Under the pieces are notes generated by a model, which saw nothing but the letters and a program-made list of their open reading frames with translations, was not told the origin of the DNA and did no database searches. From IMG/VR virus record IMGVR_UViG_3300031414_000013, positions 33,081 to 97,080 of that record: 64,000 nucleotides of DNA. One strand, given 5' to 3'. Every line of letters starts with the position of its first letter. Within the stretch, counting starts at the first letter, position 1. The stretch comes from a virus. Shown here piece after piece: positions 37,315 through 58,653 of this stretch. The translations under genes were made by a program, and so were the position numbers.

Positions 37315-37551
37315 TTACTCCGGTGCGTAGTGAAGTTTAGCTACAGCGTAGCCTTCCGCAGTAAGTACACAGAGGTGCGTGTCTTTACCTTTCGGTGCCA
37401 CCGGAACATCTACGCGTTTGCACAGACCAAGTGCAGACAATTCCGCCTCACCTGACTTAGCAGGGATCTCACCAGCTTCACGAGGACCAAACCAAAACAA
37501 GGCGTGCAGTGTATCGATAGCGCCGCCGCTGAGTTTATTAACGTTAACCAT
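37315..37551 (-). CDS. Small winged-helix-like protein
   Basis: GP...GEIPAKSG..EL...GLC...LT.EG. Confidence 0.5.
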   Translation of the reverse strand: MVNVNKLSGGAIDTLHALFWFGPREAGEIPAKSGEAELSALGLCKRVDVPVAPKGKDTHLCVLTAEGYAVAKLHYAPE

Positions 37552-38014: not shown

Positions 38015-38024
38015 GTTGGCTTCC

Positions 38025-39038: not shown

Positions 39039-39485
39039 TTAGTGAACCAGTTTTAGTGAAGGTTTGGACTTGACCGGTACATCTTCTTTAGCCTGACCGT
39101 CGCCGAAGTTCTCGAACCAGGACTTAGCGCTGGCATAGTCGCACACAGGTTGACCGATTAAAGTTGTGCGGCCATACATTACTGCGATCTGTTGGTAGGC
39201 CAGAACTACGTTGTGTTCTTTTCCACCGAAACGACAATTGAAGGTCAAATACTCAGGACCGAAATTAAGATTGCCTGTGGCTGCCGGGTTAACGTTCAGG
39301 ACGATAGTAGGTACGGCACCTTCGCCCTGCGCTGGTTGGGTGAAGCCGAGTAACACGGGGTCAGTCACAAAGTCAGCGAACAGTTGAACGTAGGGTACAT
39401 CGAATTCACAAACCCAACGGTGCGTTGCTTCTGCAAAGTGTGGCAGGAATGAAGGAACAACGATTTCTTTTTCAGATTGGCTCAT
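39039..39485 (-). CDS. sspB: SspB-like ClpXP adaptor
   Basis: W....PY, IVLNV.P.A.GNL, FNCRFGG, C-terminal KPSLKLVH XB-like tail. Confidence 0.88.
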   Translation of the reverse strand: MSQSEKEIVVPSFLPHFAEATHRWVCEFDVPYVQLFADFVTDPVLLGFTQPAQGEGAVPTIVLNVNPAATGNLNFGPEYLTFNCRFGGKEHNVVLAYQQIAVMYGRTTLIGQPVCDYASAKSWFENFGDGQAKEDVPVKSKPSLKLVH

Positions 39486-42081: not shown

Positions 42082-42139
42082 AAAAAAAATAAGCCTGAGT
42101 GCTCCTCTTCCCCGAAGGGAAGAGGAGTCTCTTTATGCC
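42080..42139. terminator. Bidirectional terminator between convergent genes
   Basis: CTCCTCTTCC/GGAAGAGGAG stem; TTTATGCC on plus side; displaced T10 on minus side. Confidence 0.85.
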
Positions 42140-42717
42140 ATCTTTGCCAGCGGCTCGAAATGTTCGTGCTTACTAACCAATCGAGTCTTCCTACTGTAAA
42201 CTACTGACTTTACATTAGGCCGCGACATGACTTCTATCAATACCCGTCCCTGTATCTTCAGGAAAGTCTTGTCCTTGCCGAACAACCCAGACTCCAACTC
42301 ACGATGGATTAGTATGTTACCCATACGCAACAGGAACAAGTCTACCTCGCCGTCACTGACCGCCAAAGTGTCTGCACCTGGGTTTAGTTTCAGCTTATAC
42401 AGGTTCTTGCGCGAGCTACGTCCTTTATCCGTACCCAAGTGGATCATGCGTCCGATGGCGTCGCAAATCAGCTTACGTGAGAGCGGATACAGGTCTCCAT
42501 GATAATAGATACCTATCAACTGGGTTAATTCACCCTGTGTGTTTATCACAGTGATACCGTCAAAGTCTTGCACACGATGCATATCGCTGGATAGACTCAG
42601 GATTGGTCTTTCTTTGCTGTAGATTGTGGCACTCTCGACTTCGCCGTGTTTACCCACACATCCGTAAATAGACATTGCTCCATCTTTAGCGTAGAAAGTT
42701 TGGTTAGTCTTGCGCAT
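42133..42717 (-). CDS. Hypothetical protein
   Basis: 194 aa, AAGGAAAA RBS. Confidence 0.7.
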   Translation of the reverse strand: MRKTNQTFYAKDGAMSIYGCVGKHGEVESATIYSKERPILSLSSDMHRVQDFDGITVINTQGELTQLIGIYYHGDLYPLSRKLICDAIGRMIHLGTDKGRSSRKNLYKLKLNPGADTLAVSDGEVDLFLLRMGNILIHRELESGLFGKDKTFLKIQGRVLIEVMSRPNVKSVVYSRKTRLVSKHEHFEPLAKMA

Positions 42718-43608: not shown

Positions 43609-44193
43609 TTATACAATGGGAGAGAACTGTACTTTATTACCCGGTGAACACAGGACTTGTTTGTACAAGCTGTGCATCGCGGCGTAGGTACCGTCAACAC
43701 TCCAATCGATGTTTGCTTTCTTAGAACGAGATAGCGTGAACTCTCCGTGGCATTGCCGTAGCAGAGGGTGCTTCGCATACAATGTATACCAGTATTCGTG
43801 CTTTCTTATCTCCAACGTTGTTGAGAAATAGACAACCACAGGCGGGTACCCTGGTGTCGTATACGAATCGTGGAACCAGGTAGAGATAGCATAGGCTACG
43901 TTCTCCAGTTCGATGTCCGTTGGTGCTACTTGATACAACCATACACTAGCATAGCGAGTGGGTGTGACTTTCATATACAACCAAGCACACGGCTTTGGCC
44001 TACCACGTGTCAACGCCTCACTTGCATAAAAAGTTAGCTGGCCATCAACTTCAATGTAGAAATCTTTCAGGTGTTTAGTTTTTGGTCGTCTGTTCCTTAG
44101 TATGGACACACGTTTTGATTTGAAAGATCGCTTGGAAAGGCTAGAGTTGTCTACGCCCCAAGTAGGCAGCAACTCAATGGTGCTCTGTGACAT
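43609..44193 (-). CDS. Hypothetical basic early protein
   Basis: Start MSQST behind AAGGAA, just after an early promoter. Confidence 0.7.
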   Translation of the reverse strand: MSQSTIELLPTWGVDNSSLSKRSFKSKRVSILRNRRPKTKHLKDFYIEVDGQLTFYASEALTRGRPKPCAWLYMKVTPTRYASVWLYQVAPTDIELENVAYAISTWFHDSYTTPGYPPVVVYFSTTLEIRKHEYWYTLYAKHPLLRQCHGEFTLSRSKKANIDWSVDGTYAAMHSLYKQVLCSPGNKVQFSPIV

Positions 44194-44225
44194 TTGGTTC
44201 TGTTCCTTTATGGTGACTCTACAGT

Positions 44226-44252
44226 AGGATAATGTATATCTGAAAATGTGAT
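44226..44252 (-). promoter_or_regulatory. Putative early promoter
   Basis: ATCACATTTTCAGATATACATTATCC. Confidence 0.75.
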
Positions 44253-44281
44253 GGCATAAAACCCACCCCCGAAGGAGTGGG
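44253..44281 (-). terminator. Hairpin + TTTTATGCC abutting an early promoter
   Basis: CCCACTCC-TTCG-GGGGTGGG-TTTTATGCC. Confidence 0.8.
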
Positions 44282-44288
44282 CTACGTA

Positions 44289-45812
44289 TTACTTGGTATA
44301 CATCTGCAACCAACGACCTACATCACGCAGGTAGTGGCAGAACATGAAGAGAGGCGAGTACGTAAAGTCACTTGCACTATCCGGACGGGATTGGAAATAG
44401 AACTCATCATACAGCTCTTCGCCAAACTCTGAGTCATAACCAAATGCATCGTTCTCCCACACGCCGCTATCACAACCTGAACCCATGAAAGGAATCATGT
44501 CGTGGAGTTTAGCGTAGTCGGTAGCAAAGCTCAGCAGGGCTTTACCAGCAGCCACTACGTCTTCTTCGGTCAGGTCAGGTACATCGAGTGCTTCTTTGTA
44601 CGTAACCTTGATCTCTTCTACCGCATTGAACTTGGCCTTTGGATTATAACGCAGAACGTAACCACCCATCAGCTCACCGCTAGTGAGATTAGGTTTAAGC
44701 GGGTACGGAATTTTCTGCGCTTTATCCAGAGTGTCTTTGGCTACCGCTTCAGCATCTTCACCACGCTTGATACGTGTCTGTGCGTCATCTTCCAGATCGC
44801 TCAATGCCTTAGCATAAGTTTTACACGCCGGGAGAACAGAGTCCAAGAGCACTTTAATGCGGCGCAGTGCTTCTGGTACGCCCTGGGCTGGCAGCAACAC
44901 TTTACCGTCTACAGACAGTCGACACGCCAACTCTTTATCGATTGTTCCCGACAGGGGGTGGTAGTTGTGTTTTACCCAGCCTGGATTAGCGAAGGTCTTC
45001 TCGATCTCTTTACGTTGTTCCTGCGCCCAACGAGAGTCAGTCAGTTTCTTACCGTCCTTCTCATCGCCTGGTGAGGGTTTATTATAACCCTTGAACATCG
45101 CTACGATACCATCAAAGATGCCTTCCTGTGAGACTGTGAAAGACTCAGTAGAAGCTTGTGTGTTGATAGCGCCGGTGTTACCGGTTGCAGGGGAAGTACC
45201 AGGCTCAGCCTGTGCAGGTTGCGAAAACTCCTGCGCGCGTTCTTCCTGGACTGCATTAACCAGACCTGCCGCCGTGACAGGCGCTTTCGGTGTGTCCGCC
45301 GGTGGTGCTGCATCCTGTTGTTCCGCCTTACGCACTAAAGCCTGAGTATCCAGAAGTTTGCCATCTGGGGATTTGTCATTGTACTGGTTAAACCAATCAA
45401 TGAGTTCTTCCATACTCAGCAGAACAGTTACATTGTTACGCTCGAGAAGACGCTTAGCGGAAACAATGGAACTCCACTGTTGTTCACTAAAGGCTTTGTC
45501 TTCGAAGCTTGGTAGAAATGCCACAACCACAACTTTCTCAGAACGGATTGCGTCTTCAGTCATTTCGAGGTAACTGTAGCAACCTTCCTGATACGGCGTG
45601 ATGGCATAAAGGATAACGTCTGCTTCCCCACGCACAGCCAGTTCAGTTTCTTTGGCTTCCTCAGTCCATTCACTGACGATTGGATTGAACCAGCGGAAAC
45701 TTTGACCCACCTGTTGGCAGAGACGCTCACGCCACTTTGGTCCTGTGCTCGTACCGCCCATGAAGACGATAGGCGCATTCCCTTCAGCAGCAAGTGCTTC
45801 ACGAATACCCAT
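44289..45812 (-). CDS. Probable head protein with N-terminal nucleoside 2-deoxyribosyltransferase-like domain
   Basis: VFMGG....WR...FNP...W....E...AD..L..I.P....SYLE; Ala/Pro/Thr linker with S/A-x-E sites; SQEGIFDGI. Confidence 0.65.
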   Translation of the reverse strand: MGIREALAAEGNAPIVFMGGTSTGPKWRERLCQQVGQSFRWFNPIVSEWTEEAKETELAVRGEADVILYAITPYQEGCYSYLEMTEDAIRSEKVVVVAFLPSFEDKAFSEQQWSSIVSAKRLLERNNVTVLLSMEELIDWFNQYNDKSPDGKLLDTQALVRKAEQQDAAPPADTPKAPVTAAGLVNAVQEERAQEFSQPAQAEPGTSPATGNTGAINTQASTESFTVSQEGIFDGIVAMFKGYNKPSPGDEKDGKKLTDSRWAQEQRKEIEKTFANPGWVKHNYHPLSGTIDKELACRLSVDGKVLLPAQGVPEALRRIKVLLDSVLPACKTYAKALSDLEDDAQTRIKRGEDAEAVAKDTLDKAQKIPYPLKPNLTSGELMGGYVLRYNPKAKFNAVEEIKVTYKEALDVPDLTEEDVVAAGKALLSFATDYAKLHDMIPFMGSGCDSGVWENDAFGYDSEFGEELYDEFYFQSRPDSASDFTYSPLFMFCHYLRDVGRWLQMYTK

Positions 45813-45852: not shown

Positions 45853-46851
45853 TTACATAAAGAAACCGTCTTCAGTAGGCTGGTCTTTATCGTCGATAAT
45901 GCTGCGGTTGTCTTTACGAGCCGCGCGGCGTTTCTCAACTTCTTCCAGCTTACCTTTGACCAGATCAGCGATAGCCGGGATTGCCTGAACGCTCACAACA
46001 AAGTGATAGCTCTGGTATTCACGGCCGTCTTTAGGATGGTAGCCAACGGTGCTGTAGTCCGGCATCACGCCACCCAGGGTTTCAGACGCATTGCTGATAA
46101 CAGATGCGATTGAGATTGGGTCAGCTACGTCAGACAGTTGTGACGCGTCGGTAACAACCTGCATCAGTGCCAGCTGTGGCTTAACATTGATACCTGGGAT
46201 ACGATCGGGACGCAGGAAGTTCAGGATGTCTGCGGTGTCCAGCTCGGTAATACGCGGACCACACATGACACTGACTGCGGCAATGATCGCTTTTACTTTA
46301 GCATCAACTGCTGCACGCTCTGAGTTATCGCCATTGTCTTCATAGGCAACCGGAATGAACATCCCGTTGGTACGGGCTTTACCGTCCAGCGTCTTTAACG
46401 CGTCCAGGGTGTTCTTAACGGTCAGCGCATTTTCGCTACTGCCCACGACGATACCGATCGCGCGTTCGCCACGTTTGATTAGTTCCATCAGTACGTTGGT
46501 ACCTTCAGTGTTACCGGAACCACCAGACAGAGAGAAGGCAACGATGTTCATTGCAGCAGGCGGCATGTTCAACAGAATCTGATTTGTTGAGTTATCCGCG
46601 CTAAATGCTTTGTGGGACTCAATGCGCAGTTTACCTGCACCGTCCATACCTTGAACGACATAGACGTCTTCGTCGCGCTCATCACCGCGCAGGTTAGCGG
46701 TTTTACTGGTGTCGACGTAACCCACCTTAATTTCCGGCAGATTAGTGGCTTCGATCAGTTCTTTGTTTTCTGGCAGCGACAGATCCCATGGGCGAGTGGT
46801 GTTAATACCAAAACCGCCAACCCCATAGATACGTACAGATCCTAAACTCAT
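45853..46851 (-). CDS. phuZ: PhuZ phage tubulin
   Basis: GVGGFGIN, DTS, GAGK, SLSGGSG, LDTADI, acidic tail IIDDKDQPTEDGFFM; start MSLGS. Confidence 0.93.
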   Translation of the reverse strand: MSLGSVRIYGVGGFGINTTRPWDLSLPENKELIEATNLPEIKVGYVDTSKTANLRGDERDEDVYVVQGMDGAGKLRIESHKAFSADNSTNQILLNMPPAAMNIVAFSLSGGSGNTEGTNVLMELIKRGERAIGIVVGSSENALTVKNTLDALKTLDGKARTNGMFIPVAYEDNGDNSERAAVDAKVKAIIAAVSVMCGPRITELDTADILNFLRPDRIPGINVKPQLALMQVVTDASQLSDVADPISIASVISNASETLGGVMPDYSTVGYHPKDGREYQSYHFVVSVQAIPAIADLVKGKLEEVEKRRAARKDNRSIIDDKDQPTEDGFFM

Positions 46852-46895
46852 TGTAAGCCTCATTTTGTAAATTAGTCCATACCATTGGAGGTTGT

Positions 46896-47711
46896 ATGAA
46901 CGCCATTGATAAGGCACTGCAAGAAATCAGAGCGACCATTCCGCTTCCGATTCTACAGCGCTCCTTTATTAACACAATCGAACATTACCAGATGTTGAAC
47001 GTTTCTCTGGATAGTGTTATTCGTGACCAGGTCATTTCCCAGCGCGTTTGGGCAGACTGTAGCTTGCAAGGTGCACAGCAAGTCTTGATCCCATTCAGTA
47101 ACTTGAAGCCTATCCAACCGGACACGTATTCCTTCATCTATCGCATTCCAAAAAGCATGACCAATGGTCGTAGCATAATGTCTGTGTTGGATGTAGTTTA
47201 TTACGTAGCCCAAGGGGTAGTTGCTTCCGGTGGTACGTTCAAAATGGGGAACACTAACGAGAACTCACCATTACTTCAGGCAGGTAAAGCATTGCTTGAT
47301 GTCGAGGGTAATATCTCGCAGATCTCCACAGCGAACGCACAGATCATCGGTGAGAACGTAATCTTCGTTAACGATAACTCCGGACTAGTAGTATCCGGTG
47401 GCGCACACGTTAAACTGGCGCATGACGAACAGTTCTCGAATATCAAACCTGAACTCTACGGTGCCTTCGCTAAACTCTGCGTACTGGCAACCAAAGCCTG
47501 GATCTTTAACAACATGGAGATCATCATCGATCGAAATGAAGTCTGGTCCGGCATGGTGGTAGGTAAGTTCAAAGAGATTGTGGATCGCTATTCGAGTGCT
47601 GAAGAAATGTACCAGGAGTACAAAGACACAACGTGGCGTAAAGCACAGGTGTCCGCTGACTATGTGACTTCTAACCGCATCATTCGCGGGATGTTCGGTT
47701 TCGCTCGTTAA
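46896..47711 (+). CDS. Conserved phiKZ-like protein, probably structural
   Basis: 271 aa, GGAGG RBS, divergent from phuZ. Confidence 0.75.
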   Translation: MNAIDKALQEIRATIPLPILQRSFINTIEHYQMLNVSLDSVIRDQVISQRVWADCSLQGAQQVLIPFSNLKPIQPDTYSFIYRIPKSMTNGRSIMSVLDVVYYVAQGVVASGGTFKMGNTNENSPLLQAGKALLDVEGNISQISTANAQIIGENVIFVNDNSGLVVSGGAHVKLAHDEQFSNIKPELYGAFAKLCVLATKAWIFNNMEIIIDRNEVWSGMVVGKFKEIVDRYSSAEEMYQEYKDTTWRKAQVSADYVTSNRIIRGMFGFAR

Positions 47712-48189
47712 GATAAGCCAACGTCAGTCGACCAGCCAACTCAACAGTGTACTCTTTACCCGGCACGATAAGTTGATGTCCCATGTGGATGTAGTACCAG
47801 TAGTCTGGTTGACCACGGCGATAGAACGGAATGTTCGTTCCTTGGCCTGGTATCGGATAGGTCGTTACCACGCCGAGTAAATTATCGTCCAGGTACAGGT
47901 AATGAACGAATAGGTCGGAGTCATCTAAGATCAACTCGCCCACATCCAGTATCTGATGCGGTTCTTCAAGCTTGGTCTTCACCCAGCGCTGTAAGATCTC
48001 CAGGTAAGGTTCAGGCGAACGATCTTCGCTACGGTCCATCTTAACCAGACTATAGTTACCGTGTTCGTCCAACAGTAACGCAATCAGATTGCCGACACTG
48101 TAATCAAGACTAAAGGTAACTTTGCCGTCGCTGGTTTCCATGACAGTCATGGGATCTGGTACTTCACTTTCAACAACGTTAGTTTCCAT
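47680..48189 (-). CDS. Early paralog family member
   Basis: See the paralog-family finding. Confidence 0.7.
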   Translation of the reverse strand: METNVVESEVPDPMTVMETSDGKVTFSLDYSVGNLIALLLDEHGNYSLVKMDRSEDRSPEPYLEILQRWVKTKLEEPHQILDVGELILDDSDLFVHYLYLDDNLLGVVTTYPIPGQGTNIPFYRRGQPDYWYYIHMGHQLIVPGKEYTVELAGRLTLAYLNERNRTSRE

Positions 48190-48198
48190 AATCTCACC

Positions 48199-48250
48199 AA
48201 AAAAAAAATAGTCTTAGGCTAGCCTCCCGATGGGAGGCTAGTTTATGCCC
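48199..48250. terminator. Bidirectional-type terminator
   Basis: CTAGCCTCCC/GGGAGGCTAG; TTTATGCC on plus side; displaced T10 on minus side. Confidence 0.8.
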
Positions 48251-48261
48251 GCAGATGCGGA

Positions 48262-48621
48262 TTAATGAAAGCAGCGTTTAATCATGGTTTGAATATCGAA
48301 CAGTTCGATAGACCCACCAACGACTTTACCGACTACAGTCTTACCCAACTTAACTTCGCCGTTCTTCTCACGCAGCTCACCTACCGCCCATACTTTGAAT
48401 GGGATGCGCGTGGCTTTAGCGTAATCAACAGCTGCTTCGATTACCGACTCTGGGAGCAGGCGATCAGATGGGTCTACCATCGGGTATGCACGCATCAGTA
48501 CCAACTCACCGTTCTGCTGAACGAGTGCGGTCACTGTATTGATGCTCAGTTCAGTACTCAGAACGATCTCTGCGTTGAAATCGTTGTCGGTGTTCAGGAT
48601 GATATTGGTTGATGCGTTCAT
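48262..48621 (-). CDS. Early paralog family member
   Basis: 119 aa, TAAGGAA RBS. Confidence 0.75.
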   Translation of the reverse strand: MNASTNIILNTDNDFNAEIVLSTELSINTVTALVQQNGELVLMRAYPMVDPSDRLLPESVIEAAVDYAKATRIPFKVWAVGELREKNGEVKLGKTVVGKVVGGSIELFDIQTMIKRCFH

Positions 48622-48632
48622 AATGGTATTCC

Positions 48633-49211
48633 TTATAAGTAAGTGGCGATCTTCTCAGCGAGCAGTCTGTTACCCGCATAGATCACAATATGGCGATCGG
48701 CCATGTAATCATTATCGATAAAACCGATCTGTTGATTTTCTGTGGTGTCAACCACAATCAGTCGATACTTAACAAACGGACAGTCTATGACCGTGACGTT
48801 GTCTGTACCCTTTAACAGCTCTACCAGTCTGGTGATTTGGTTGTGCGCATGGTTCCCCGACTTGTAGGTCTTACGGAACATTGCCGAGATAGAACTGTTT
48901 CCGTTCCGGAGATGCTTAACCGCGAAGTTCTTGTCGTAGTGACCAACTTCGCTAAAGTTCACGCTGTCGCCATCTTCAGAACCATGTGTCTCAATGACGT
49001 AGTAGCCATCAGGTCCAGGTGTGAGTTTACTCAACTCTGCTCGGTCGCAGGTACCGCAGTTAATATGGCCAACCACCTTAGCTTCGGTTAGAAGGCTAGC
49101 GTGTTGCGGGGTAGCATACACCACGATATCCAGACCAGTGCAAGACTTGATCCAATCACGCAATGTTTCACCGCCTGGAACTTTTGAGCGCATCTGAAAC
49201 TGTGAGTACAT
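48633..49211 (-). CDS. Hypothetical early protein
   Basis: 192 aa, AAGGAA RBS. Confidence 0.75.
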   Translation of the reverse strand: MYSQFQMRSKVPGGETLRDWIKSCTGLDIVVYATPQHASLLTEAKVVGHINCGTCDRAELSKLTPGPDGYYVIETHGSEDGDSVNFSEVGHYDKNFAVKHLRNGNSSISAMFRKTYKSGNHAHNQITRLVELLKGTDNVTVIDCPFVKYRLIVVDTTENQQIGFIDNDYMADRHIVIYAGNRLLAEKIATYL

Positions 49212-49277
49212 AATCTATTCCTTTTCATAATAAGAGTTTAGGCTGTATTTAAATACAGCCTAGTTTAAAACGACCAA

Positions 49278-49490
49278 CTACAGCTTACGCATTGCTGTGT
49301 CGATTGCGATACCGGCAGCAACTGCTGCGGCAGTAACGCAGAACGAGATGCCCAGCGTAGCGAATTCGCCAACTGGTTCTTCACCGTCTTTCTTGGGTGC
49401 AACGATAGCAGTTGTAACAGATGCTGCTACCAGACCCATAGAAACGCCTACCAGGATAGACGGGATATTTCGTACATTGATATCTAACAT
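49278..49490 (-). CDS. Small two-TM membrane protein
   Basis: 70 aa with two hydrophobic helices. Confidence 0.7.
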   Translation of the reverse strand: MLDINVRNIPSILVGVSMGLVAASVTTAIVAPKKDGEEPVGEFATLGISFCVTAAAVAAGIAIDTAMRKL

Positions 49491-49498
49491 GTGGCCCC

Positions 49499-49675
49499 CT
49501 AATCGGACATAGAACGGATAACTTTCTCAACAGTGGTGCTTACAACTACACCACAAACGATGACGCCAACGCGGCGCAGTATCTCATGCTCCTCGCCAAC
49601 ATATTTGCGAGATTCGCGGTCTACCACATAACTGGTAAGACCACCCGCTACAGCACATGCAATGCGAGTTAACAT
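49499..49675 (-). CDS. 58-aa hydrophobic protein (not in ORF track)
   Basis: MLTRIACAVAGGLTSYVVDRESRKYVGEEHEILRRVGVIVCGVVVSTTVEKVIRSMSD; GAGAGG RBS. Confidence 0.65.
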   Translation of the reverse strand: MLTRIACAVAGGLTSYVVDRESRKYVGEEHEILRRVGVIVCGVVVSTTVEKVIRSMSD

Positions 49676-49729
49676 AGGTACCTCTCTTTACAGTAAATGG
49701 GGACCTTACGATCCCCGACAGCTCAGCAC

Positions 49730-49924
49730 TTAACTTTGCGCTTCACGCACAACTTCAGCCACTGAGTCGGCAGCGTCATTAACGACTTCTGCCACGGTTT
49801 CAGTCAGGGTGCCAGTGTCGTCACCGTTAGCACGTTTCCACGCCCAGTAACCGAAACCAGCTGCCGCTGCAACACCAACAACGATACAAGTAGCGATAGT
49901 AACTTTCTTAGTAGTTGAAGACAT
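49730..49924 (-). CDS. 64-aa single-TM protein, first gene after the duplicated early promoter
   Basis: MSSTTKKVTIATCIVVGVAAAAGFGYWAWKR; TAAGGA RBS. Confidence 0.75.
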   Translation of the reverse strand: MSSTTKKVTIATCIVVGVAAAAGFGYWAWKRANGDDTGTLTETVAEVVNDAADSVAEVVREAQS

Positions 49925-50003
49925 AATTTGAATCCTTATAGAAATGATAGAGTGAGGGCATAAAACCCAAGGAAGTGAAGCATTACTGCTCCACATTCAC
50001 AAG

Positions 50004-50034
50004 GGTCTTATATATCTGAAAATTTATTGAAACG
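50004..50034 (-). promoter_or_regulatory. Putative early promoter, 31-nt exact repeat copy 2
   Basis: Identical to 12394-12424. Confidence 0.8.
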
Positions 50035-50039
50035 GTGGT

Positions 50040-50507
50040 TTAGTTAATAAACCGTGCACCACGCAGGTAGTTGAAGATACCGTCGCCCCAGGCGCGAGTA
50101 AACGTCATGCTCATCTGACCTGCTTCCATCGATGCAGTACGTGCTTCCCACACTGGCAGCCATACGCCACCTTCACGGGTAGGGAGTGCGAAGTAGTTCA
50201 TGGTGAAGTTACATGCACCCGGCAGATACCAGTCATAGGCACCATTCATAGCACCTTGCAGACGCTGGATGATGTCCATGTGGATTGCCAGCATGTGCTG
50301 GTTACACTCTTCGGTTGTGTAGACACGGAAGAGCTGCTCAGGAGCAGGCTGATACTCGACCGCAAAGCCAGGCACTGCATGCAGTACGTTGATAAAGTCA
50401 ACGATAACTGGATTCAGGCTACGACCCTGCTGATACAGGAAGTCCATAGTGCGCTGGCGGATAGTGTTGATCTGAGCATAGTCTGGGTAACGGGTTTGCA
50501 TAACCAT
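50040..50507 (-). CDS. Hypothetical protein
   Basis: 155-aa ORF. Confidence 0.7.
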   Translation of the reverse strand: MVMQTRYPDYAQINTIRQRTMDFLYQQGRSLNPVIVDFINVLHAVPGFAVEYQPAPEQLFRVYTTEECNQHMLAIHMDIIQRLQGAMNGAYDWYLPGACNFTMNYFALPTREGGVWLPVWEARTASMEAGQMSMTFTRAWGDGIFNYLRGARFIN

Positions 50508-50513
50508 TCCTTA

Positions 50514-51230
50514 TTAGTAGCGAGTTAGCCAACTAAAGAAGTTGGGCGACACGACGTTTCCTTTAGCATCCAGGTAACGTGTCTCTTCTGTTGTGTCAGC
50601 AGAGAGATCGTAATCTACCAGAACGCTTTCAGCCAGCCGGAAATTTAAATCAAGGCCAAACTGAGTAAAGGTTGCGACGGTCTTGTTGTTGAAAGAAGCA
50701 TTGTGTGGAAAGAACGTTTCATCCTTGTTAGGTGCGACCAGTGTAAATACACCGGCATCTAACACATTCATGGTAGGATGTTTAAGCTCAGCAAATGCAC
50801 GAATCAGCTGGCGGGTAAGTTTGGCACCCAGCTCACTGTCCGTGAAAATACTGATGAAGCTTTGTGAGTCGCCAAGCCATTGCGAGAGCAGACCACCTTT
50901 AGGATCATTCAAAGTAAGACTAACATCGTTAGGGCAAATGCGTCGTTTACCTTTAAGCTCCAGACGGTGGGCAACGAGACTCTGGTTGGTTTGCGTTAAC
51001 ATACCGTAGAATCCGTTTACTGCTCCCGGCTTCAGGCTGTAGACCTCTTCCCAAAGTAAGAGTTCAGACGGGCGACCTGGATGTGGAATCTGACTAACCG
51101 GCATATGAAGATCGGTACGCTGTGCACTGGCTGTCTTATAGTTAAGGATGAACCCTAACGTAAAGCCACCGGTGGGCGTTGATACAACATGTGCTGATTT
51201 GATTTCGGGTTCGTAGATTGAGAAAAGCAC
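50514..51230 (-). CDS. Early paralog family member (extended)
   Basis: MNVLDAGVF...ASFNNKTVATF; GTG start. Confidence 0.65.
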   Translation of the reverse strand: MLFSIYEPEIKSAHVVSTPTGGFTLGFILNYKTASAQRTDLHMPVSQIPHPGRPSELLLWEEVYSLKPGAVNGFYGMLTQTNQSLVAHRLELKGKRRICPNDVSLTLNDPKGGLLSQWLGDSQSFISIFTDSELGAKLTRQLIRAFAELKHPTMNVLDAGVFTLVAPNKDETFFPHNASFNNKTVATFTQFGLDLNFRLAESVLVDYDLSADTTEETRYLDAKGNVVSPNFFSWLTRY

Positions 51231-51242
51231 GTGAGTGTCCCC

Positions 51243-51692
51243 TTAGCTGGTAACGCTGTGTAATACCTCCAAGCGCACCATGCGATTGAGTAAGCGCTCA
51301 CTGTCTGAGTATTTGTAACCCGTGCATTCAAGCCTGGTAAGACCTGCTGCACTGAAGTTAAAACGCCCGTCAGTAATTGCCCCTAACGTCACGTTAGCAA
51401 TGGTAAGGTTGCTACCCGGCTTATTCATCCAGAGCTGACCCATTACACGCACTGTACCACCTGCCGCTTTAGCAATTAGTACCTGCGCACGATCACCCAT
51501 TGCACCATATTCTTCAGGTACAACTTTGTCACCGTTTTCCAATGCATAGACGTGAACCACATCATTCGCAGTAAAGGCGACTACAATATCCTGAAGACTG
51601 ATTTCTTTAGTCAGTCGCATGAGTACAGTATTGTTCTCACGCATCTCCAGGAAGTCGGACTTTGAAGTCTTCACCCAACGGCAGTTAATCAT
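51243..51692 (-). CDS. Early paralog family member
   Basis: Aligns with 48262..48621. Confidence 0.7.
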   Translation of the reverse strand: MINCRWVKTSKSDFLEMRENNTVLMRLTKEISLQDIVVAFTANDVVHVYALENGDKVVPEEYGAMGDRAQVLIAKAAGGTVRVMGQLWMNKPGSNLTIANVTLGAITDGRFNFSAAGLTRLECTGYKYSDSERLLNRMVRLEVLHSVTS

Positions 51693-52114
51693 CAGAACCT
51701 CAGCGTTGTTTTGCCAATGTCAATACAGATGGTTTTCGATTTAGGACTTTCGCGATACATAACGAAGCCTGCGATGGCCAGCGGGTTTTCCAGATCCCAA
51801 TTTACTTTGAGCGGAGTCAGCCACAGAAGGCGACGAGCCATGACTTTCAAAGTCGGGTAAAGTTTATAAACGTCGGCGATCTTAGACTCTTTGGTCACCA
51901 TCGGATCTTCAGCGATGTCGCGGATAACGCGAACAAACTTTGCTGCGTCCAGATTGATGTCATAGTTGCTGCGACCACCGACACCCATGTTCTTATCGTA
52001 AATCGGGAAAACTGACAGGACACCTTCGTTGGCGAAAGTTGGGATATGCGCATATGCAGTAATCATGTTGATGTTCCTTATAGAAGTGTTAGGTCTGAAT
52101 GGTGAATACGTCAC
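51692..52114 (-). CDS. Hypothetical protein
   Basis: ORF in operon; start probably MITAY. Confidence 0.6.
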   Translation of the reverse strand: MTYSPFRPNTSIRNINMITAYAHIPTFANEGVLSVFPIYDKNMGVGGRSNYDINLDAAKFVRVIRDIAEDPMVTKESKIADVYKLYPTLKVMARRLLWLTPLKVNWDLENPLAIAGFVMYRESPKSKTICIDIGKTTLRF

Positions 52115-52304
52115 CGGATAAAGTTACAATGATACGTTTAGGTAAAACCTCAACGCTGAATTGTTCGTTCTTGCAGGCCACAAGGTCTTTACGACACTGA
52201 TATAACATAGTGTGCATAAATGATTTTAAACGTGGTTTTGCTGTGGCGATCTTTGCTCCAACGATGTAGTTGTTGAAGGCTTTGGTGATATGGTTAGGCA
52301 ACAT
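52089..52304 (-). CDS. Hypothetical protein
   Basis: 71-aa ORF. Confidence 0.55.
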   Translation of the reverse strand: MLPNHITKAFNNYIVGAKIATAKPRLKSFMHTMLYQCRKDLVACKNEQFSVEVLPKRIIVTLSGDVFTIQT

Positions 52305-52860
52305 GCTCGCGGTCCGGGATAATGGCTACTACATTGTCACTGTCGATGCGGTTAATGCGGTAGCGAGTTACGGTAGCTAACCCACGTGTAGCTGGGGTAG
52401 CGAAGAACACCGTACGTGTGCCCAGGAAATAACCCTCACAGACACGCAGAGGATTTTGCCCTGCAACCAGAGGTGGGATTTGGCGGACACTGACGACGGT
52501 TTCGATATCAACTATCGTACGATTGGGCACGCCAACGAAATCCCAGAACAAACGATGCAGGTATGCACAGTTGCGTAACGTCTCCAGAGCACGAGCAATC
52601 TGAAGGGTATAGACAGACAGACTCAGACGAGCGAGTCCATCGGTAGTAACCTGGAATGCGATCTTCTGGTTGATCAGCAGTGGTCGAATAACCAGCGCTT
52701 CTTTAACCTCACCGATGGTGACATAGTAGTTACCACCTGCCATGTTACAAACAATGCTAACATCGCCAGCGGCCAAAATAACAATACCTGGTCTTGCTGT
52801 GAGCGTTTGTTTGACGAAACGCATCACCTCTTTCTTCTCGTCGAAATAAAGGGTAGCCAT
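52294..52860 (-). CDS. Hypothetical early protein, possible paralog family member
   Basis: First gene after early promoter, GAGGAG RBS. Confidence 0.7.
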   Translation of the reverse strand: MATLYFDEKKEVMRFVKQTLTARPGIVILAAGDVSIVCNMAGGNYYVTIGEVKEALVIRPLLINQKIAFQVTTDGLARLSLSVYTLQIARALETLRNCAYLHRLFWDFVGVPNRTIVDIETVVSVRQIPPLVAGQNPLRVCEGYFLGTRTVFFATPATRGLATVTRYRINRIDSDNVVAIIPDREHVA

Positions 52861-52890
52861 TAGTTCTCTCCTCTTATGGGCTATCTACAC

Positions 52891-52920
52891 GGAAATAATA
52901 TGTATTTGAAATTTGAATGA
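52891..52920 (-). promoter_or_regulatory. Putative early promoter
   Basis: TCATTCAAATTTCAAATACATATTATTTCC. Confidence 0.6.
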
Positions 52921-52936
52921 TGTCTAAGGAACCGTT

Positions 52937-54148
52937 ATGGCCGATACTTTAAAGACGGTCTTTGATCGAAACTGTCCAGATATTGTTGCTGACAGTAAGT
53001 TCGCACAATCGATCATCGACTTCGCAAAAGCTTTCGTTAATAAGAATCCAGATCACGTACGGTTCTTTGGCGGAGCACTCATTGGAGTCTATCCACTGCG
53101 TTGGGTAAACTCAGACCTGGATAAGTGGTACGACGTCATCTTGAAGGGTGCGGATGAGATTGCTATCCGTAAGCAGCTCCACGCATTGCCAGGTATTGAC
53201 GCTAGTTGGGTACGCGGCGCTGATGAAACAAACCACTCGATGATCTACTGTCTGCATCTGCTTGAGCATGGTAACATCCCTGCCAAGTTGAAACTGGAAG
53301 CTCAGATTGCCTCAATGGAAATCATGCAGTATAAGTTCCTGTCCAGTCTGATGTATCACTACTTCCCCCACCCAGCTGCCATGTCAGTAGCACAGGCGAC
53401 GTACAACGCACTGTCGAAGAAGTTCGACCTTAAAGTGTGTGGTAACTGGGGTGAGTTGGTTAAAGAGCGTGCAATCGATATCATCGCGCCTAAGAGCATA
53501 CACCGTAAAGCCTTCACTGACTTTACTGATGCAAAAGGCATCGTCTACATTATCACAGACGTACAGGGTCGCTTGCGCAGCATCGTTAAGAACATCACCG
53601 CTGTTTTCTATAACGTTAAGGAAGCAGGTAAAGGAGTACTGTCCGAGTCCACGATGGTTGAAGGCGAAGACGGTATGTATCTCAAGGACAAGACGACCGC
53701 TATCCGTGACGGTGTGAACTATCTCACCAGTATCGTTAACGATAAGCGTGGGTTCGTACGTAAAGAGATCTTGCGTCTGGTCAACCGTAAGATGTCAACG
53801 TCTCGTGACTGGTTAGTGGAATCTTCACTCAACCTTCTCTCTGAACGTTACGGTGATCCTAAGTACCCTGCGGTACAAGAGCTTTGTAAAGAGACTCTTC
53901 TACACGCGTTCGAAGTCATGACCGCCAAGAACATTCGCACCAACGATTATCCGCTCATTATGGATACGCTGAAGAAAAGCTACATGGCTTCTCGTGAGAC
54001 ACACCCTGGTGTGTTGAAGATGCGTAAGTTAGGTGACGAGTTAGTACTGGCAGCGCTACCACCAGGGCGTAGCAATGTTGTCGCACCAGATCGTGGGGCC
54101 GTGTTGCTGTACATTGTGTTGCGTACTCTTACAAAGCACAATTTCTAA
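52937..54148 (+). CDS. Conserved phiKZ-like protein, probably virion structural
   Basis: 403 aa, TAAGGAA RBS, plus strand near terminase. Confidence 0.75.
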   Translation: MADTLKTVFDRNCPDIVADSKFAQSIIDFAKAFVNKNPDHVRFFGGALIGVYPLRWVNSDLDKWYDVILKGADEIAIRKQLHALPGIDASWVRGADETNHSMIYCLHLLEHGNIPAKLKLEAQIASMEIMQYKFLSSLMYHYFPHPAAMSVAQATYNALSKKFDLKVCGNWGELVKERAIDIIAPKSIHRKAFTDFTDAKGIVYIITDVQGRLRSIVKNITAVFYNVKEAGKGVLSESTMVEGEDGMYLKDKTTAIRDGVNYLTSIVNDKRGFVRKEILRLVNRKMSTSRDWLVESSLNLLSERYGDPKYPAVQELCKETLLHAFEVMTAKNIRTNDYPLIMDTLKKSYMASRETHPGVLKMRKLGDELVLAALPPGRSNVVAPDRGAVLLYIVLRTLTKHNF

Positions 54149-54200
54149 CAAAAAAAGAAAAGGCTGAGGCTAGGGACCGTTGGGTCCCTAGCCTTATGCC
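54149..54200. terminator. Bidirectional terminator
   Basis: GGCTAGGGACC/GGTCCCTAGCC; TTATGCC on plus side; displaced T tract on minus side. Confidence 0.85.
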
Positions 54201-54201
54201 G

Positions 54202-54585
54202 CTATAGCGCGCTCAGTGTGGCATACGGGAAAGCAGCAACCCAGTAGAGTTGATCATTCTCGTATATCGCACGAACGTGGTAATGACTCTTTATGCTGCG
54301 TTGCCTAGCATCAATGAACCCACCAAAGAATCTGGCGTTTTCATTCAGCTTAGCTGTAGTTAATAAGGTGTCGGGTTTAGCTATGCCAACTAACCCGCCA
54401 TCGAACATATAAAACGTATCCCCAACTTCGGCTTTCAAATGACGCAGTCCGGCAGGAGTAAATTTCATTTCCTTATTCTCACCGCCAAACAGCATGCGTT
54501 TACTAACCCGAGTAATGACGAATCGTTCAACTATACCTAGGGACGCGTTATTGGTTATTGGTCCCGATGGTGTTTTCATATGCAC
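54202..54585 (-). CDS. Hypothetical protein
   Basis: 127-aa ORF. Confidence 0.6.
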   Translation of the reverse strand: MHMKTPSGPITNNASLGIVERFVITRVSKRMLFGGENKEMKFTPAGLRHLKAEVGDTFYMFDGGLVGIAKPDTLLTTAKLNENARFFGGFIDARQRSIKSHYHVRAIYENDQLYWVAAFPYATLSAL

Positions 54586-55051
54586 TCCAGACTTTGTTCC
54601 GTAAGAAGTCTACGGAGCGTCCTGTTAGCACAGCTGACTCTACTTCCAGTTGCTGGTTGTCTACGGACACAACCTCAGCAAAGATAGTGTCTTCTAACAG
54701 GAACTCTACTGACCCCTCTCCAGTGTCAATGATTTCCATATTCCCGCATGCAAGTAATTCGTATTCGATAAAAGGCGGTGTGGTAATGTTCAGTAGTGTC
54801 AATAGCTGATTGTCAGTCTCACCTACATCCTCGTCTCCACGGAATGCAAGTAAGTCATACAACACCGGACCAGTGTGGTCTTCATGGTAATAACCAATCA
54901 ATACCCAGAAAGCCTTAGCTGCTTCTTCATCGGTTGGTAAGTAAAGTTCACCTACAATATCTTGTTTGTAGTCAAGCCATTTACCGCCAATTCGTTTTAG
55001 TGCACAGTCGGCCTTCGTGATCGCCTCCCAATTATCAAATAGTGTTTGCAT
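54548..55051 (-). CDS. Early paralog family member (acidic)
   Basis: YELLACGNMEI...FLLEDTIFAEV. Confidence 0.7.
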   Translation of the reverse strand: MQTLFDNWEAITKADCALKRIGGKWLDYKQDIVGELYLPTDEEAAKAFWVLIGYYHEDHTGPVLYDLLAFRGDEDVGETDNQLLTLLNITTPPFIEYELLACGNMEIIDTGEGSVEFLLEDTIFAEVVSVDNQQLEVESAVLTGRSVDFLRNKVWSAYENTIGTNNQ

Positions 55052-55084
55052 GATGTGTTTCCTTAAATAGATGTCCTTCGCACT

Positions 55085-55113
55085 GGTGTAGTATATATCT
55101 GAAAATGCGATGG
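55085..55113 (-). promoter_or_regulatory. Putative early promoter
   Basis: CCATCGCATTTTCAGATATATACTACACC. Confidence 0.72.
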
Positions 55114-55145
55114 GGCATAGGAGACTCCCCCGAAGGAGAGTCTCT
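55114..55145 (-). terminator. Hairpin + CTATGCC abutting an early promoter
   Basis: GAGACTCTCC-TTCG-GGGGAGTCTC. Confidence 0.7.
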
Positions 55146-55154
55146 GTATGAAAC

Positions 55155-55631
55155 TTAAAGATAACGTTCGATCAGAGCTGCCATTTGGGTTTTGAATCCA
55201 TCCTCACCTTCAGACGGACCAAATCCCATGAGTTGCAGATTAGTCACACGAGCCATGCCGTTGATGTGCGGTGTATCGAAAGTGGCCAGCGGCGTATTGC
55301 CCAATGTAGCCATCCAACGATCTCCATTACGGCTGACGGTAATGCCAAGTCCGTAACCGCACAGTTTCCACAGTGTATTCGTTTCACGCGTAGCGCGTTC
55401 TGCGATATAACCAACCAAGCACTCAGGAATACCCAGTGAAAGGTTAGACACAGACACACCGTAGAATACCATTCGTCCGGTAGGGTTTTGAATGATACAA
55501 ATTCCCTGCTCCATGGGAACTGCAAAAGGTGACAAAGTCATAATGCGCTGGCGTTCCTCGCCGTGGGCCAATGCTATCGCTGGACCCATAGCCAGATCAC
55601 ACTGATCCAGGAATCTCCGATCGATGTTCAT
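55155..55631 (-). CDS. Paralog family member
   Basis: IPE...WKLCGYG...ATLGNTPLATF. Confidence 0.65.
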   Translation of the reverse strand: MNIDRRFLDQCDLAMGPAIALAHGEERQRIMTLSPFAVPMEQGICIIQNPTGRMVFYGVSVSNLSLGIPECLVGYIAERATRETNTLWKLCGYGLGITVSRNGDRWMATLGNTPLATFDTPHINGMARVTNLQLMGFGPSEGEDGFKTQMAALIERYL

Positions 55632-56532: not shown

Positions 56533-58653
56533 TTAGAATCTACGTGTACGCATTGCTTTGGTACGTGCATCTTTGATGTCTTCCAGCAGTTCGTTCAGTG
56601 AGAAGCTTTCACCACCCATTGCTTTGATCTTAACATTCAAAACATTTAACTTGTGTTCGAGTTTACTTACAACATACATGTTGGTAGTACTTTTTAACTC
56701 TTCGACTACGCTATCCAGTTCTTCACGGTACGCCCTCTGAAGCTCAGCCTCAGCAGCAGCACGACGCTCCTCAGGTGAAGCCGCATCTCCAGTCGTTCTA
56801 GACAGGATAGCACCGCGAGGGATACCGTAGTGTGAGAGGTTGGATGCTTTCATGACGAACCAGAAGTTCAACAGCCAACTGATAACCATGTCATCGTGGC
56901 CAGAAGCTTTATGGTCAATACGACCGTTCTTCACAACCAGTGATGTGATTTCGTTGATCAGTGTTTTATCGCGAGTATGGCGACCAGCACGCTTAGCTGC
57001 TTCAGGTAACACTTCACCGTACAGAGTCATACGACTTTCTGCTGTGGTGTTGAAGCCGAACTTATTACGGACATCATCATAGAAGTAGTTACCACGTGCA
57101 CGCACTGGTGTGTTCACCATAGCGGCGGCATTCTTATCCACTTTCATCTCTTCAACAATCCAGTTGAAGATACGTTTGAATGGATCAATACCTTGCAACG
57201 GTAGGCGTAAGAGTAACGCATCGATCATGGTCTGTGCAGTAGACTTACGCTCGATAATCAGTGTAACGTTTGGATACTTGATTAACAGCTCACCGATGTA
57301 GTCAGCAAACTTAATCAGGTTCGTCTCGTTACAACGCCCTGCCCCAATAGTGCCCATGTCACGAATATCCGTGAACACCATACCGATGGCATCTCGACCT
57401 ACCGCTTCCGAGGTATCCATACCGAGCAGTACGTGAGAGCTTTCCATGAACTTCTCATGTTGAGCCTTCGGAACGTGCCAACCGATGCTGTAGCCATCCT
57501 TGTGATATTCTGTCCACAGCGGTTCGCGCTCAGAGTCACGGATGATGTTGTTCAGCTCAGTGGAAAGAGGGGAACGTAAAGAACCTGACGTCCAGCGATT
57601 GAAGAAGTCACGGTCGGCCTCTTCACCTTTTGCGCCGGAGTTCTGTAATGCGTCGCGGAGCCATTCTTCGCTAAGACCTAACTGACGATAACTCCACGTA
57701 CCGTTGATCATGATACGCGCACCTTTCTTACCGATGCGTTTGATCAATACGGCACGTAACTCATCCTGGTCTTTGAGGTCGTAGTACGACTCATCAAACA
57801 CAGCTGCGTCTGAAAGCATTTCGTAGACGTAAGCGCCTTCACGAGTATCCTTCTTCCCAGCCGTTGTTGTAAAGATGTTTGAGTAGGGTTGGTCGTTCTC
57901 ACGAGCAATCTGACGAGCCATTGTACCTGCCGCAAGAGCAGCTGGTATAGTGATGTCGATATTCGAACAGAACGGTACCTCATCGATATGCGTTACCTGA
58001 CACGTAGATCCACGCCCCAAGTTTAACGCCCCCGACTCCGTTTTCTGTGCCACCCCTGTAACGTAAGCATTACCCAGCAGGTTGTAAGTCAACTCTGATT
58101 GGTTGTCTGCATCTGCGCGGTCTTTTATCCAAAGGTAAGAAGGCAGCAGGTCACGGATAGCTTTCAAACGGTCGATGTTAGAACGACGCAGTGCGTCATC
58201 CTTTGTGATCAGATAAATCTTCCCTTTATACATCGTGAAATACATCAGGTTAATACTGATGGTATCCGACGAACCAGACTTACCTGTCTGACGTGGCTGG
58301 ATTAACATGTAGTCGATGTGGTTATAGAAACTCCAGATCAGACTGATGTTAGCACGGTTTGCTACGAAGCGACGAGGAACACTACCTGCCTCGAACCGTA
58401 CAATCTCACGATAGTAATACCAGGGGTTGAAGCGACACTCAATGGCAATCTTATTTTTGATTTCGGCTGAAAGGTCTGCCGCAAAAGGATCGACGTGTCT
58501 GAGTTCGGGCTGAAGTAATGACAGCATGAAAGTACAGTTACGTACACCCATTGCTTTATACAGCTCTGCCATATCCAAGAAGGACTGGTTGCTAGTCTCT
58601 CGGTGGACAACAGCTGTAGGGTAGAGCTTCCAATCTTGTTCGAATAAAATCAT
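56533..58653 (-). CDS. terL: Terminase large subunit (phiKZ gp25-like)
   Basis: NPWYY.RE, QPRQTGKS, HIDE, TTTAG, nuclease GMDTS and HDDMV. Confidence 0.93.
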   Translation of the reverse strand: MILFEQDWKLYPTAVVHRETSNQSFLDMAELYKAMGVRNCTFMLSLLQPELRHVDPFAADLSAEIKNKIAIECRFNPWYYYREIVRFEAGSVPRRFVANRANISLIWSFYNHIDYMLIQPRQTGKSGSSDTISINLMYFTMYKGKIYLITKDDALRRSNIDRLKAIRDLLPSYLWIKDRADADNQSELTYNLLGNAYVTGVAQKTESGALNLGRGSTCQVTHIDEVPFCSNIDITIPAALAAGTMARQIARENDQPYSNIFTTTAGKKDTREGAYVYEMLSDAAVFDESYYDLKDQDELRAVLIKRIGKKGARIMINGTWSYRQLGLSEEWLRDALQNSGAKGEEADRDFFNRWTSGSLRSPLSTELNNIIRDSEREPLWTEYHKDGYSIGWHVPKAQHEKFMESSHVLLGMDTSEAVGRDAIGMVFTDIRDMGTIGAGRCNETNLIKFADYIGELLIKYPNVTLIIERKSTAQTMIDALLLRLPLQGIDPFKRIFNWIVEEMKVDKNAAAMVNTPVRARGNYFYDDVRNKFGFNTTAESRMTLYGEVLPEAAKRAGRHTRDKTLINEITSLVVKNGRIDHKASGHDDMVISWLLNFWFVMKASNLSHYGIPRGAILSRTTGDAASPEERRAAAEAELQRAYREELDSVVEELKSTTNMYVVSKLEHKLNVLNVKIKAMGGESFSLNELLEDIKDARTKAMRTRRF

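What the first reader, a model, noticed from the sequence alone, without database searches (positions are those of the whole stretch)
47680..55631. Cryptic expanded paralog family of about 7 divergent early ORFans
Seen: a shared pattern of hydrophobic strands, then (D)xxPE, a helix, hhhG(E/Q/N/D)h, and h(G/D/N)xxxh(G/A). 48262 reads LSTELSINTVTAL..DRLLPE..VWAVGEL..VKLGKTVVG. 51243 reads LTKEISLQDIVVA..DKVVPE..VRVMGQL..LTIANVTLG. 47680 reads FSLDYSVGNLIAL..DRSPE..ILDVGEL..LYLDDNLLG. More distant members are 54548 (LLACGNM..FLLEDTIFA), 55155 (IPE..LCGYG..TLGNTPLA), 50514 (VLDAGVF..SFNNKTVA) and 52294 (ILAAGDV..VTIGEV); 4430 (FRAVGDI) is possible. Most lie behind the early promoter motifs and are interleaved with core genes. 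Inference: a diversified scaffold used as a panel of host-takeover or anti-defence binders.
Basis: partly seen in the sequence, partly recalled or inferred. Interest (0 to 1): 0.75.

Follow-up and report, generated by a model that had tools for sequence, protein, structure and literature searches.

The report
Jumbo-phage ORFans, seven-member paralogy unsupported
The seven small genes are real, conserved, single-copy accessory genes of a nucleus-forming jumbo phage, but they are not demonstrably one gene family; at most three of them (and perhaps a separate pair) may be very old duplicates.

Summary
The window is a fragment of a Chimalliviridae-like jumbo phage; its nearest named relative is Erwinia phage pEa_SNUABM_54. 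All seven ORFs exist as quoted. Each has one syntenic orthologue in three relatives and dN/dS of 0.06-0.28, so they are real genes.

The seven-member family fails every standard test:
- No BLASTP or HMM cross-hits.
- No all-vs-all hhalign probability above 5%.
- Iterative HMM searches never join families.
- A merged A/B/C profile finds no further copy in four related records, including two complete phage genomes.

Single motif elements occur at chance frequency. The fold test stayed incomplete: only B (48262) gave a usable AlphaFold model, and it matched no solved structure.

A weaker signal remains for B, A (47680, adjacent) and C (51243). Their alignment is collinear over about 100 columns, the motifs sit on conserved columns, and leave-one-family-out profiles rank the omitted family first. 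This trio is the clear outlier among 455 control triples. I put trio homology at about 55%, a separate D/G pair at about 30%, and treat E, F and the 4430 ORF as chance.

The early-promoter motif is real and precedes D and the operon holding G, C and F. No function was established.

The parts
47680..48189 (-). Gene A, 169 aa. ORFan adjacent to B; possible remote paralogue of B and C.
   Evidence: Orthologues at 66% (L003) and 31% (pEa_SNUABM_54). dN/dS 0.076. Top hit of the deep B profile among 92 window proteins: score 24.8, P 0.0018, 87 columns. The score falls to 16.5-17.3 when A's orthologues are added.
48262..48621 (-). Gene B, 119 aa. The only candidate with a usable structure model: three strands, a helix, a four-strand meander, then a C-terminal helix.
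51243..51692 (-). Gene C, 149 aa. ORFan; possible remote paralogue of B and A.
Evidence: Eight homologues. The B+A profile ranks C first of 51 families, score 23.7.
54548..55051 (-). Gene D, 167 aa. First gene behind an exact early-promoter motif; weakly similar to G only.
   Evidence: hhalign D-G: 22.8, P 0.009, 79 columns, reciprocal best hits. Not found by the trio profile.
55155..55631 (-). Gene E, 158 aa. Independent ORFan; its motif match is not conserved.
   Evidence: 'LCGYG' reads 'VIAYD' in the pEa_SNUABM_54 orthologue. hhalign to the other families is at noise level. No early motif upstream.
50514..51230 (-). Gene F, 238 aa. Independent ORFan in the G...C-F operon.
   Evidence: No hhalign score above noise to any candidate. 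Orthologues at 73% and 44%.
52294..52860 (-). Gene G, 188 aa. First gene behind a degenerate early-promoter motif; weakly similar to D only.
   Evidence: hhalign G-D: 20.8, 79 columns. The G motif lies at residues 28-34, so the N-terminal strands and helix of the A/B/C layout are absent.
55092..55104 (-). Early-promoter-like motif TTTCAGATATATA, 41 nt upstream of D's start.
   Evidence: Exact 13-mer, one of three exact copies in the window. All lie on the minus strand in intergenic DNA.
52899..52911 (-). Degenerate early-promoter-like motif TTTCAAATACATA, 39 nt upstream of G. Heads the operon G, 52089, 51692, C, F, 50040.
   Evidence: Two mismatches to the motif. The genes behind it are separated by 12 nt or less, or overlap.
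50009..50021 (-). Exact early-promoter-like motif ahead of three small hydrophobic ORFs (49278-49996). Gene 48633-49211 and B follow downstream.
48190..48261 (-). B-A intergenic region holding a GC-rich hairpin followed by a T10 run (terminator-like).
   Evidence: Read directly from the sequence. The consensus scan missed it because the T run starts 10 nt after the stem.

Best explanation
The region is a syntenic block of lineage-restricted, fast-evolving, single-copy accessory genes. It lies between the PhuZ tubulin gene and the large terminase gene of a Chimalliviridae-like jumbo phage. The genes are transcribed leftward, several of them from early (virion-RNAP-type) AT-rich promoters.

The seven candidates are not one demonstrable family. 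B, its neighbour A, and C probably (about 55%) descend from one small ancestral gene through old local duplications. That gene would encode a domain of three strands, a helix that begins at the D-x-x-PE segment, a strand ending in an invariant Gly, a beta-meander and a final helix. The duplications predate the split from pEa_SNUABM_54, and the copies have since diverged beyond standard detection.

D and G, each the first gene of an early operon, may (about 30%) be a second old pair. E, F and the 4430 ORF share only short hairpin-like motifs that occur at chance frequency.

Function is inferred, not shown. The proteins are small and soluble, with no catalytic motif, no Pfam or PHROG hit and no transmembrane segment. 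Some sit in early operons. They most likely act by binding host or phage proteins early in infection.
For: Real genes and synteny:
- 1:1 orthologues in L003/L004 and pEa_SNUABM_54.
- dN/dS 0.06-0.28.

No seven-member family:
- No BLASTP hit between candidates among 93 window ORFs.
- Family HMMs give no cross-hits.
- Iterative HMM over 1123 ORFs never merges families.
- hhalign maximum is 2.4-4.5% probability; the tool's hhalign gives 0.2-0.84%.
- The merged trio profile finds only its three training families in the window's own record, in the related IMG/VR contig and in pEa_SNUABM_54 (272 kb), and nothing in Ea35-70 (271 kb). It does not raise D, E or G above noise.
- Single motif elements occur at chance frequency.

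Trio:
- The motifs fall on invariant columns of the B and C alignments.
- B's best hit among 92 window proteins is the adjacent gene A.
- Leave-one-family-out profiles put the omitted family first of 51.
- In 1365 control runs the three trio rotations (26.3, 23.9, 23.6) all exceed the 99th percentile (22.9). The trio's minimum of 23.6 compares with 17.4 for the next of 455 triples.
- B and C conservation profiles correlate, rho 0.25, with 0 of 107 shifts reaching it.
- 7 of B's 9 predicted secondary-structure elements recur in C in register.

Early promoters:
- Three exact and four near copies of TTTCAGATATATA, all on the minus strand, 13-75 nt upstream of the annotated or orthologue-supported start codons.
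- This fits the roughly 10-nt AT-rich early motif described for RNAP-encoding jumbo phages (PMC7598289).
Against: For the trio:
- No pairwise score is significant.
- B-A drops from 24.8 to about 17 when A's orthologues are added.
- A-C alone is nil.
- B-A and A-C conservation profiles do not correlate.
- A's 'PE' is not conserved.
- Merging with unrelated families inflates hhalign scores: G+F029->D scores 30.8 against 22.8 for G->D.
- Fold identity is untested. B's model rests on 1 of 5 AF2 models and C's failed.

For function and timing:
- There is no direct evidence at all on function.
- B and A lie behind hairpins, not directly behind an early motif, and E has none.
Confidence: 0.6

Rival explanations
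1. One reading: all seven (or eight) ORFs are one cryptic, diversified paralogue family sharing a scaffold.
For: The motif Gly is invariant within families A, B, C, D, F and G. Candidate pairs fill the top ranks of low-scoring hhalign lists. B's model finds several uncharacterised proteins per genome in other jumbo phages in BFVD, at Foldseek E 3e-3 to 3e-2 and TM 0.36-0.52.
Against: The merged A/B/C profile does not detect D, E, F or G in any genome, even at E<=5, nor by hhalign. There is no trio-to-D/G link in the 455-triple calibration. E's motif is not conserved. G and the 4430 ORF lack the N-terminal half of the layout. The single motif elements occur at chance frequency.
Confidence: 0.07
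2. There is no paralogy at all. The seven are unrelated ORFans, and the A/B/C and D/G resemblances are chance plus the generic sequence grammar of small beta-alpha-beta proteins (alternating hydrophobic strands, Gly at hairpin turns, S/D/P-x-x-E helix caps).
For: Every pairwise profile comparison is non-significant. B-A weakens when orthologues are added. A-C shows nothing. There is selection bias over very many possible triples. Control runs with unrelated families reach 22-23.
Against: The trio's minimum of three rotations (23.6) is far above every other triple (17.4 or less of 455). A and B are adjacent. Similar motif variants appear across genomes, for example D-Y-x-x-G-N-h-h-A-L in A of the window and in B of pEa_SNUABM_54. 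B and C conservation profiles correlate.
Confidence: 0.33

Closest known systems
Hypothetical proteins pEaSNUABM54_00148, 00147, 00141, 00135, 00134, 00143 and 00138 of Erwinia phage pEa_SNUABM_54 (MW879341.1)
   Same: They are 1:1 syntenic orthologues of A, B, C, D, E, F and G, with the same order, strand and flanking core genes (PhuZ, DUF7484, the 403-aa head-associated protein, terminase).
   Different: Only 30-51% amino-acid identity, against 54-69% for neighbouring core genes. All are annotated 'hypothetical', so they add no functional information.
Ea357_193 (YP_009004987.1, 90 aa) of Erwinia phage Ea35-70 and its Agricanvirus-like relatives
   Same: Probable remote homologue of B. Three weak lines agree: Foldseek hit W6ATE2 (90 aa, E 9e-3), a B-family HMM hit at E 0.039 among 1010 ORFs, and hhalign probability 25-48%. 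It lies in a similar position upstream of the 403-aa core gene.
   Different: It is shorter. Only the C-terminal meander (B residues about 77-109) aligns. Identifying W6ATE2 with Ea357_193 rests on length alone. No A-like or C-like partner was detected in Ea35-70.
Early accessory (host-takeover) genes of phiKZ-like phages, transcribed by the virion RNAP
   Same: Small ORFan genes arranged in operons behind a conserved AT-rich motif of about 10 nt, as described for RNAP-encoding jumbo phages (PMC7598289).
   Different: No sequence or fold relationship to any characterised early protein was found. Timing is inferred from the motif only.
T7 Gp2 (RNAP inhibitor; PDB 2lmc, 2wnm)
   Different: These scores are far below the level at which such matches carry meaning, and there is no sequence similarity. 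This is a lead only, not membership.

Membership tests
Single paralogue family of the seven ORFs | Significant sequence or profile-profile similarity between members | tested here: not met
   BLASTP gives no hits. HMM searches give no cross-hits. hhalign probabilities are 4.5% or less and 0.2-0.84% with the tool.
Single paralogue family of the seven ORFs | A profile built from the core members recovers the distant members | tested here: not met
   The merged A/B/C profile finds only A, B and C in the window's own contig, a related IMG/VR contig and pEa_SNUABM_54, and nothing in Ea35-70, at E<=5. D, E and G are absent from the top 14 hhalign hits.
Single paralogue family of the seven ORFs | Shared predicted fold | tested here: inconclusive
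   Only B was modelled usefully (pLDDT 73.9). C's model failed (41.6). The Atlas models of A and C have pLDDT 0.35 and 0.33.
A/B/C remote paralogue trio | Collinear alignment with motifs on conserved columns and matching spacing | tested here: met
   MAFFT alignment A5. Motif spacings (PE to Gly, then Gly to Gly) are 24 and 17 in B, 26 and 19 in C, and 25 and 22 in A. The Gly is invariant in all 18 sequences.
A/B/C remote paralogue trio | Statistical support beyond chance after allowing for selection | tested here: inconclusive
Leave-one-out ranks are 1 of 51 for each family. The trio is the outlier among 455 control triples.
Early (virion-RNAP) transcription units of RNAP-encoding jumbo phages | Conserved AT-rich motif of about 10 nt shortly upstream of the operon | tested here: met
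   TTTCAGATATATA occurs exactly three times, with four near copies, all on the minus strand and intergenic. It lies directly upstream of D, of G (which heads the operon containing C and F), and of the 49730-49996 gene. It is not directly upstream of A, B or E.
Early (virion-RNAP) transcription units of RNAP-encoding jumbo phages | Early transcripts observed | not testable with these tools
   No expression data exist for this uncultured phage.

The most novel reading that the evidence does not exclude
B, A and C (and separately D and G) are survivors of repeated in-cluster duplication of a small beta-alpha-beta scaffold. The same scaffold would recur several times per genome across nucleus-forming jumbo phages, as hinted by the BFVD hits in Eowyn, FBKp24, PhiEaH1, Ea35-70, RAY and Psa21. 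That would make it a widespread fold family of early accessory proteins that sequence comparison cannot see.
Probability: 0.15. Interest if true: 0.55.

Novelty: new member of a known kind. Interest (0 to 1): 0.22.

Why it matters
Jumbo-phage genomes consist largely of ORFans. Knowing whether these arise by duplication and divergence of a few scaffolds or independently affects how their functions are searched for. Here the answer is mostly negative: the block is an ordinary set of single-copy accessory genes with orthologues already deposited as hypothetical proteins. Only a possible three-member remote family, and perhaps one pair, remains. The practical gains are a verified early-promoter motif, operon boundaries, and a cultured relative (pEa_SNUABM_54) in which the orthologues could be tested.

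Tried and rejected
- PHROGs and Pfam scans of the seven ORFs and their neighbours found nothing.
- PDB sequence-profile searches for B and C found nothing below E 0.5.
- Foldseek of C's low-confidence model against BFVD gave noise only.
- ESM Atlas searches for C and A were uninformative because the Atlas models are poor.
- tblastn of B and C against 50,697 phage records hit only pEa_SNUABM_54.
- Scans of IMG/VR with the B alignment returned only the two known contigs, and scans with the distant B homologues P0018, P0019 and P0020 returned nothing. No bridging genome context was obtained.
- The first leave-one-out test used sub-alignments of a joint alignment and, through a script slip, skipped all non-candidate families. 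I discarded it and redid the test with independent realignment and a control set.
- Literature searches found no described paralogue family matching these genes.
- Earlier scan notes on this genome concern other loci and were not used.
Full report
**Context.** The window is bases 33081-97080 of a 97-kb IMG/VR viral contig estimated to be 36% complete. It encodes a PhuZ-like tubulin (45853-46917), a DUF7484 protein (46896-47711), a 403-aa protein conserved in 290 jumbo-phage records and a large terminase (56533-58653). This identifies a phiKZ-like, nucleus-forming (Chimalliviridae-type) phage. The nearest named relative is Erwinia phage pEa_SNUABM_54, at 54% identity in the 403-aa protein. Two IMG/VR contigs are closer, at 93%.

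**Are the ORFs real?** All quoted strings are present in minus-strand ORFs at the stated coordinates. I label them as follows:
- A: 47680-48189
- B: 48262-48621
- C: 51243-51692
- D: 54548-55051
- E: 55155-55631
- F: 50514-51230
- G: 52294-52860

Each has exactly one syntenic orthologue in the IMG/VR relatives (66-92% aa) and in pEa_SNUABM_54 (30-51% aa). Pairwise dN/dS is 0.06-0.28. They are therefore genuine genes under purifying selection, and they diverge faster than the neighbouring core genes. None has a Pfam or PHROG hit. B and C have no tblastn hit in 50,697 phage records other than pEa_SNUABM_54. An exhaustive profile search for B found only four clusters among 1.84 billion proteins.

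**Is the motif more than chance?** The individual elements are common. The G element occurs in 18 of 93 window proteins (13.6 expected), the h[GDN]xxxh[GA] element in 50 of 93 (45 expected), and PE in 45 of 93 (36 expected). Only the ordered composite is specific to A, B and C, and I wrote that pattern after seeing them. Across orthologues the motif Gly is invariant in A, B, C, D, F and G. In contrast, A's PE and E's LCGYG are not conserved. In G and in the 4430 ORF (4430-4774, minus strand) the G motif lies near the N-terminus, which is incompatible with the A/B/C layout.

**Seven-member family.**
- All-vs-all BLASTP of 93 window ORFs gives no hit between candidates. The only true paralogue pair in the window lies elsewhere.
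- Family HMMs give no cross-hits, and iterative HMM searches over 1123 ORFs from 12 related loci never merge families.
- hhalign among 16 region families peaks at 2.4% probability and among 53 families at 4.5% for D-G.
- The tool's own hhalign gives 0.84% for B-A, 0.29% for B-C and 0.2% for A-C.
- A profile merged from A, B and C finds only those three genes in the window's own contig, the related contig and the complete pEa_SNUABM_54 genome. It finds nothing in Ea35-70 and does not lift D, E or G out of the noise.

The family of about seven is not supported.

**Fold test.** B's AlphaFold model reached pLDDT 73.9, in only one of five models. Its elements are E15-20, E30-36, E39-47, H57-71, E76-86, E89-92, E95-101, E104-107 and H110-118. 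It matches no solved structure. In BFVD its best, sub-threshold matches are uncharacterised proteins of other jumbo phages, several per genome. C's model failed at pLDDT 41.6 and both prediction jobs were then used. The Atlas models of A and C are also poor.

**The A/B/C trio.**
- The motifs sit on invariant columns of the B and C alignments, with similar spacing.
- The deep B profile's best hit among 92 window proteins is the adjacent gene A (24.8, P 0.0018, 87 columns; the next hit scores 19.4). The score falls to about 17 when A's orthologues are added.
- With independent realignment, B+A ranks C first of 51 families (23.7), A+C ranks B first (27.9) and B+C ranks A first (18.0).
- In a calibration of 1365 'merged pair against third' runs on 15 families, the median was 13 and the 99th percentile 22.9. 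The three trio rotations scored 26.3, 23.9 and 23.6. The trio's minimum of 23.6 compares with 17.4 for the next of 455 triples.

Several caveats apply. Merging with unrelated families inflates scores. Conservation profiles correlate for B-C (rho 0.25) but not for B-A or A-C. I put trio homology at about 55%.

**D and G.** These are reciprocal best hhalign hits over about 79 columns (P 0.009-0.02) and are the other outlier in the calibration. Each is the first gene behind an early motif. I put homology at about 30%. Neither links to the trio.

**Transcription.** TTTCAGATATATA occurs exactly at 12399, 50009 and 55092, with near copies at 11692, 24960, 44233 and 52899. All copies are on the minus strand, 13-75 nt upstream of the annotated or orthologue-supported start codons. 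This matches the roughly 10-nt AT-rich early motif reported for RNAP-encoding jumbo phages (PMC7598289). It precedes three units:
- D;
- G, which heads the operon G, 52089, 51692, C, F, 50040;
- a trio of small hydrophobic ORFs, with gene 48633-49211 and B downstream of them.

A follows a hairpin and T10 terminator-like element. E has no such motif. 'Behind early promoters' is therefore true for D, G, C and F, uncertain for B and A, and unsupported for E.

**Remote relative of B.** Three weak lines point to Ea357_193 (90 aa) of Erwinia phage Ea35-70, which lies in a comparable position: a Foldseek hit to a 90-aa Ea35-70 protein, a B-family HMM hit at E 0.039, and hhalign probabilities of 25% and 48%.

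**Verdict.** This is an ordinary block of single-copy, lineage-restricted accessory genes, partly early-transcribed. A possible three-member remote family and a possible pair remain. No function was established. The binder-panel idea stays an untested inference.

Noticed in passing
window 37544-38053 (-) and 26415-26978 (-): This is the only statistically clear paralogue pair in the window: BLASTP E 9e-12, 33% identity over 105 aa. Neither protein has a Pfam hit.
   Followed up: partly
window 12399-12411, 50009-50021, 55092-55104 (exact); 11692, 24960, 44233, 52899 (near); all minus strand: Conserved AT-rich motif TTTCAGATATATA, 13-75 nt upstream of start codons. It is probably the early (virion-RNAP) promoter of this phage lineage.
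   Followed up: partly
upstream of genes 3004-3585, 4785-5396, 39039-39485, 42133-42717, 54548-55051 and 56533-58653: A GC-rich hairpin is followed within a few bases by T(T)ATGCC or TATG. It looks like a terminator coupled to a phiKZ-type late 'TATG' promoter.
   Followed up: no
window 47680-48621: Against the IMG/VR relative L003, adjacent genes differ tenfold in synonymous divergence (B dS 0.34, A dS 3.19). This suggests a recombination breakpoint or allele replacement in the B-A intergenic terminator region.
   Followed up: no
window 49278-49490, 49499-49675, 49730-49996 (-): Three consecutive small ORFs with strongly hydrophobic, transmembrane-like segments lie directly behind an exact early-promoter motif.
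   Followed up: no
window 43609-44313 (-): The longest ORF probably starts too far upstream. A near-exact promoter motif lies inside it at 44233-44245, and the orthologues are about 193 aa against 234 aa here.
   Followed up: no
L005:6375-6647 (-) (Erwinia phage Ea35-70, Ea357_193) and L005:8212-8637 (-) (Ea357_189): Ea357_193 is a probable remote homologue of B. Ea357_189 (141 aa) gives long but weak hhalign alignments to B, to C and to the trio profile (scores about 19.6, 59-82 columns for B and the trio).
   Followed up: partly
window 46896-47711 (+): The plus-strand gene next to PhuZ is a full-length DUF7484 protein (PF24302, E 2.7e-76). It is conserved beside PhuZ in a distant metagenomic relative (L017).
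   Followed up: partly
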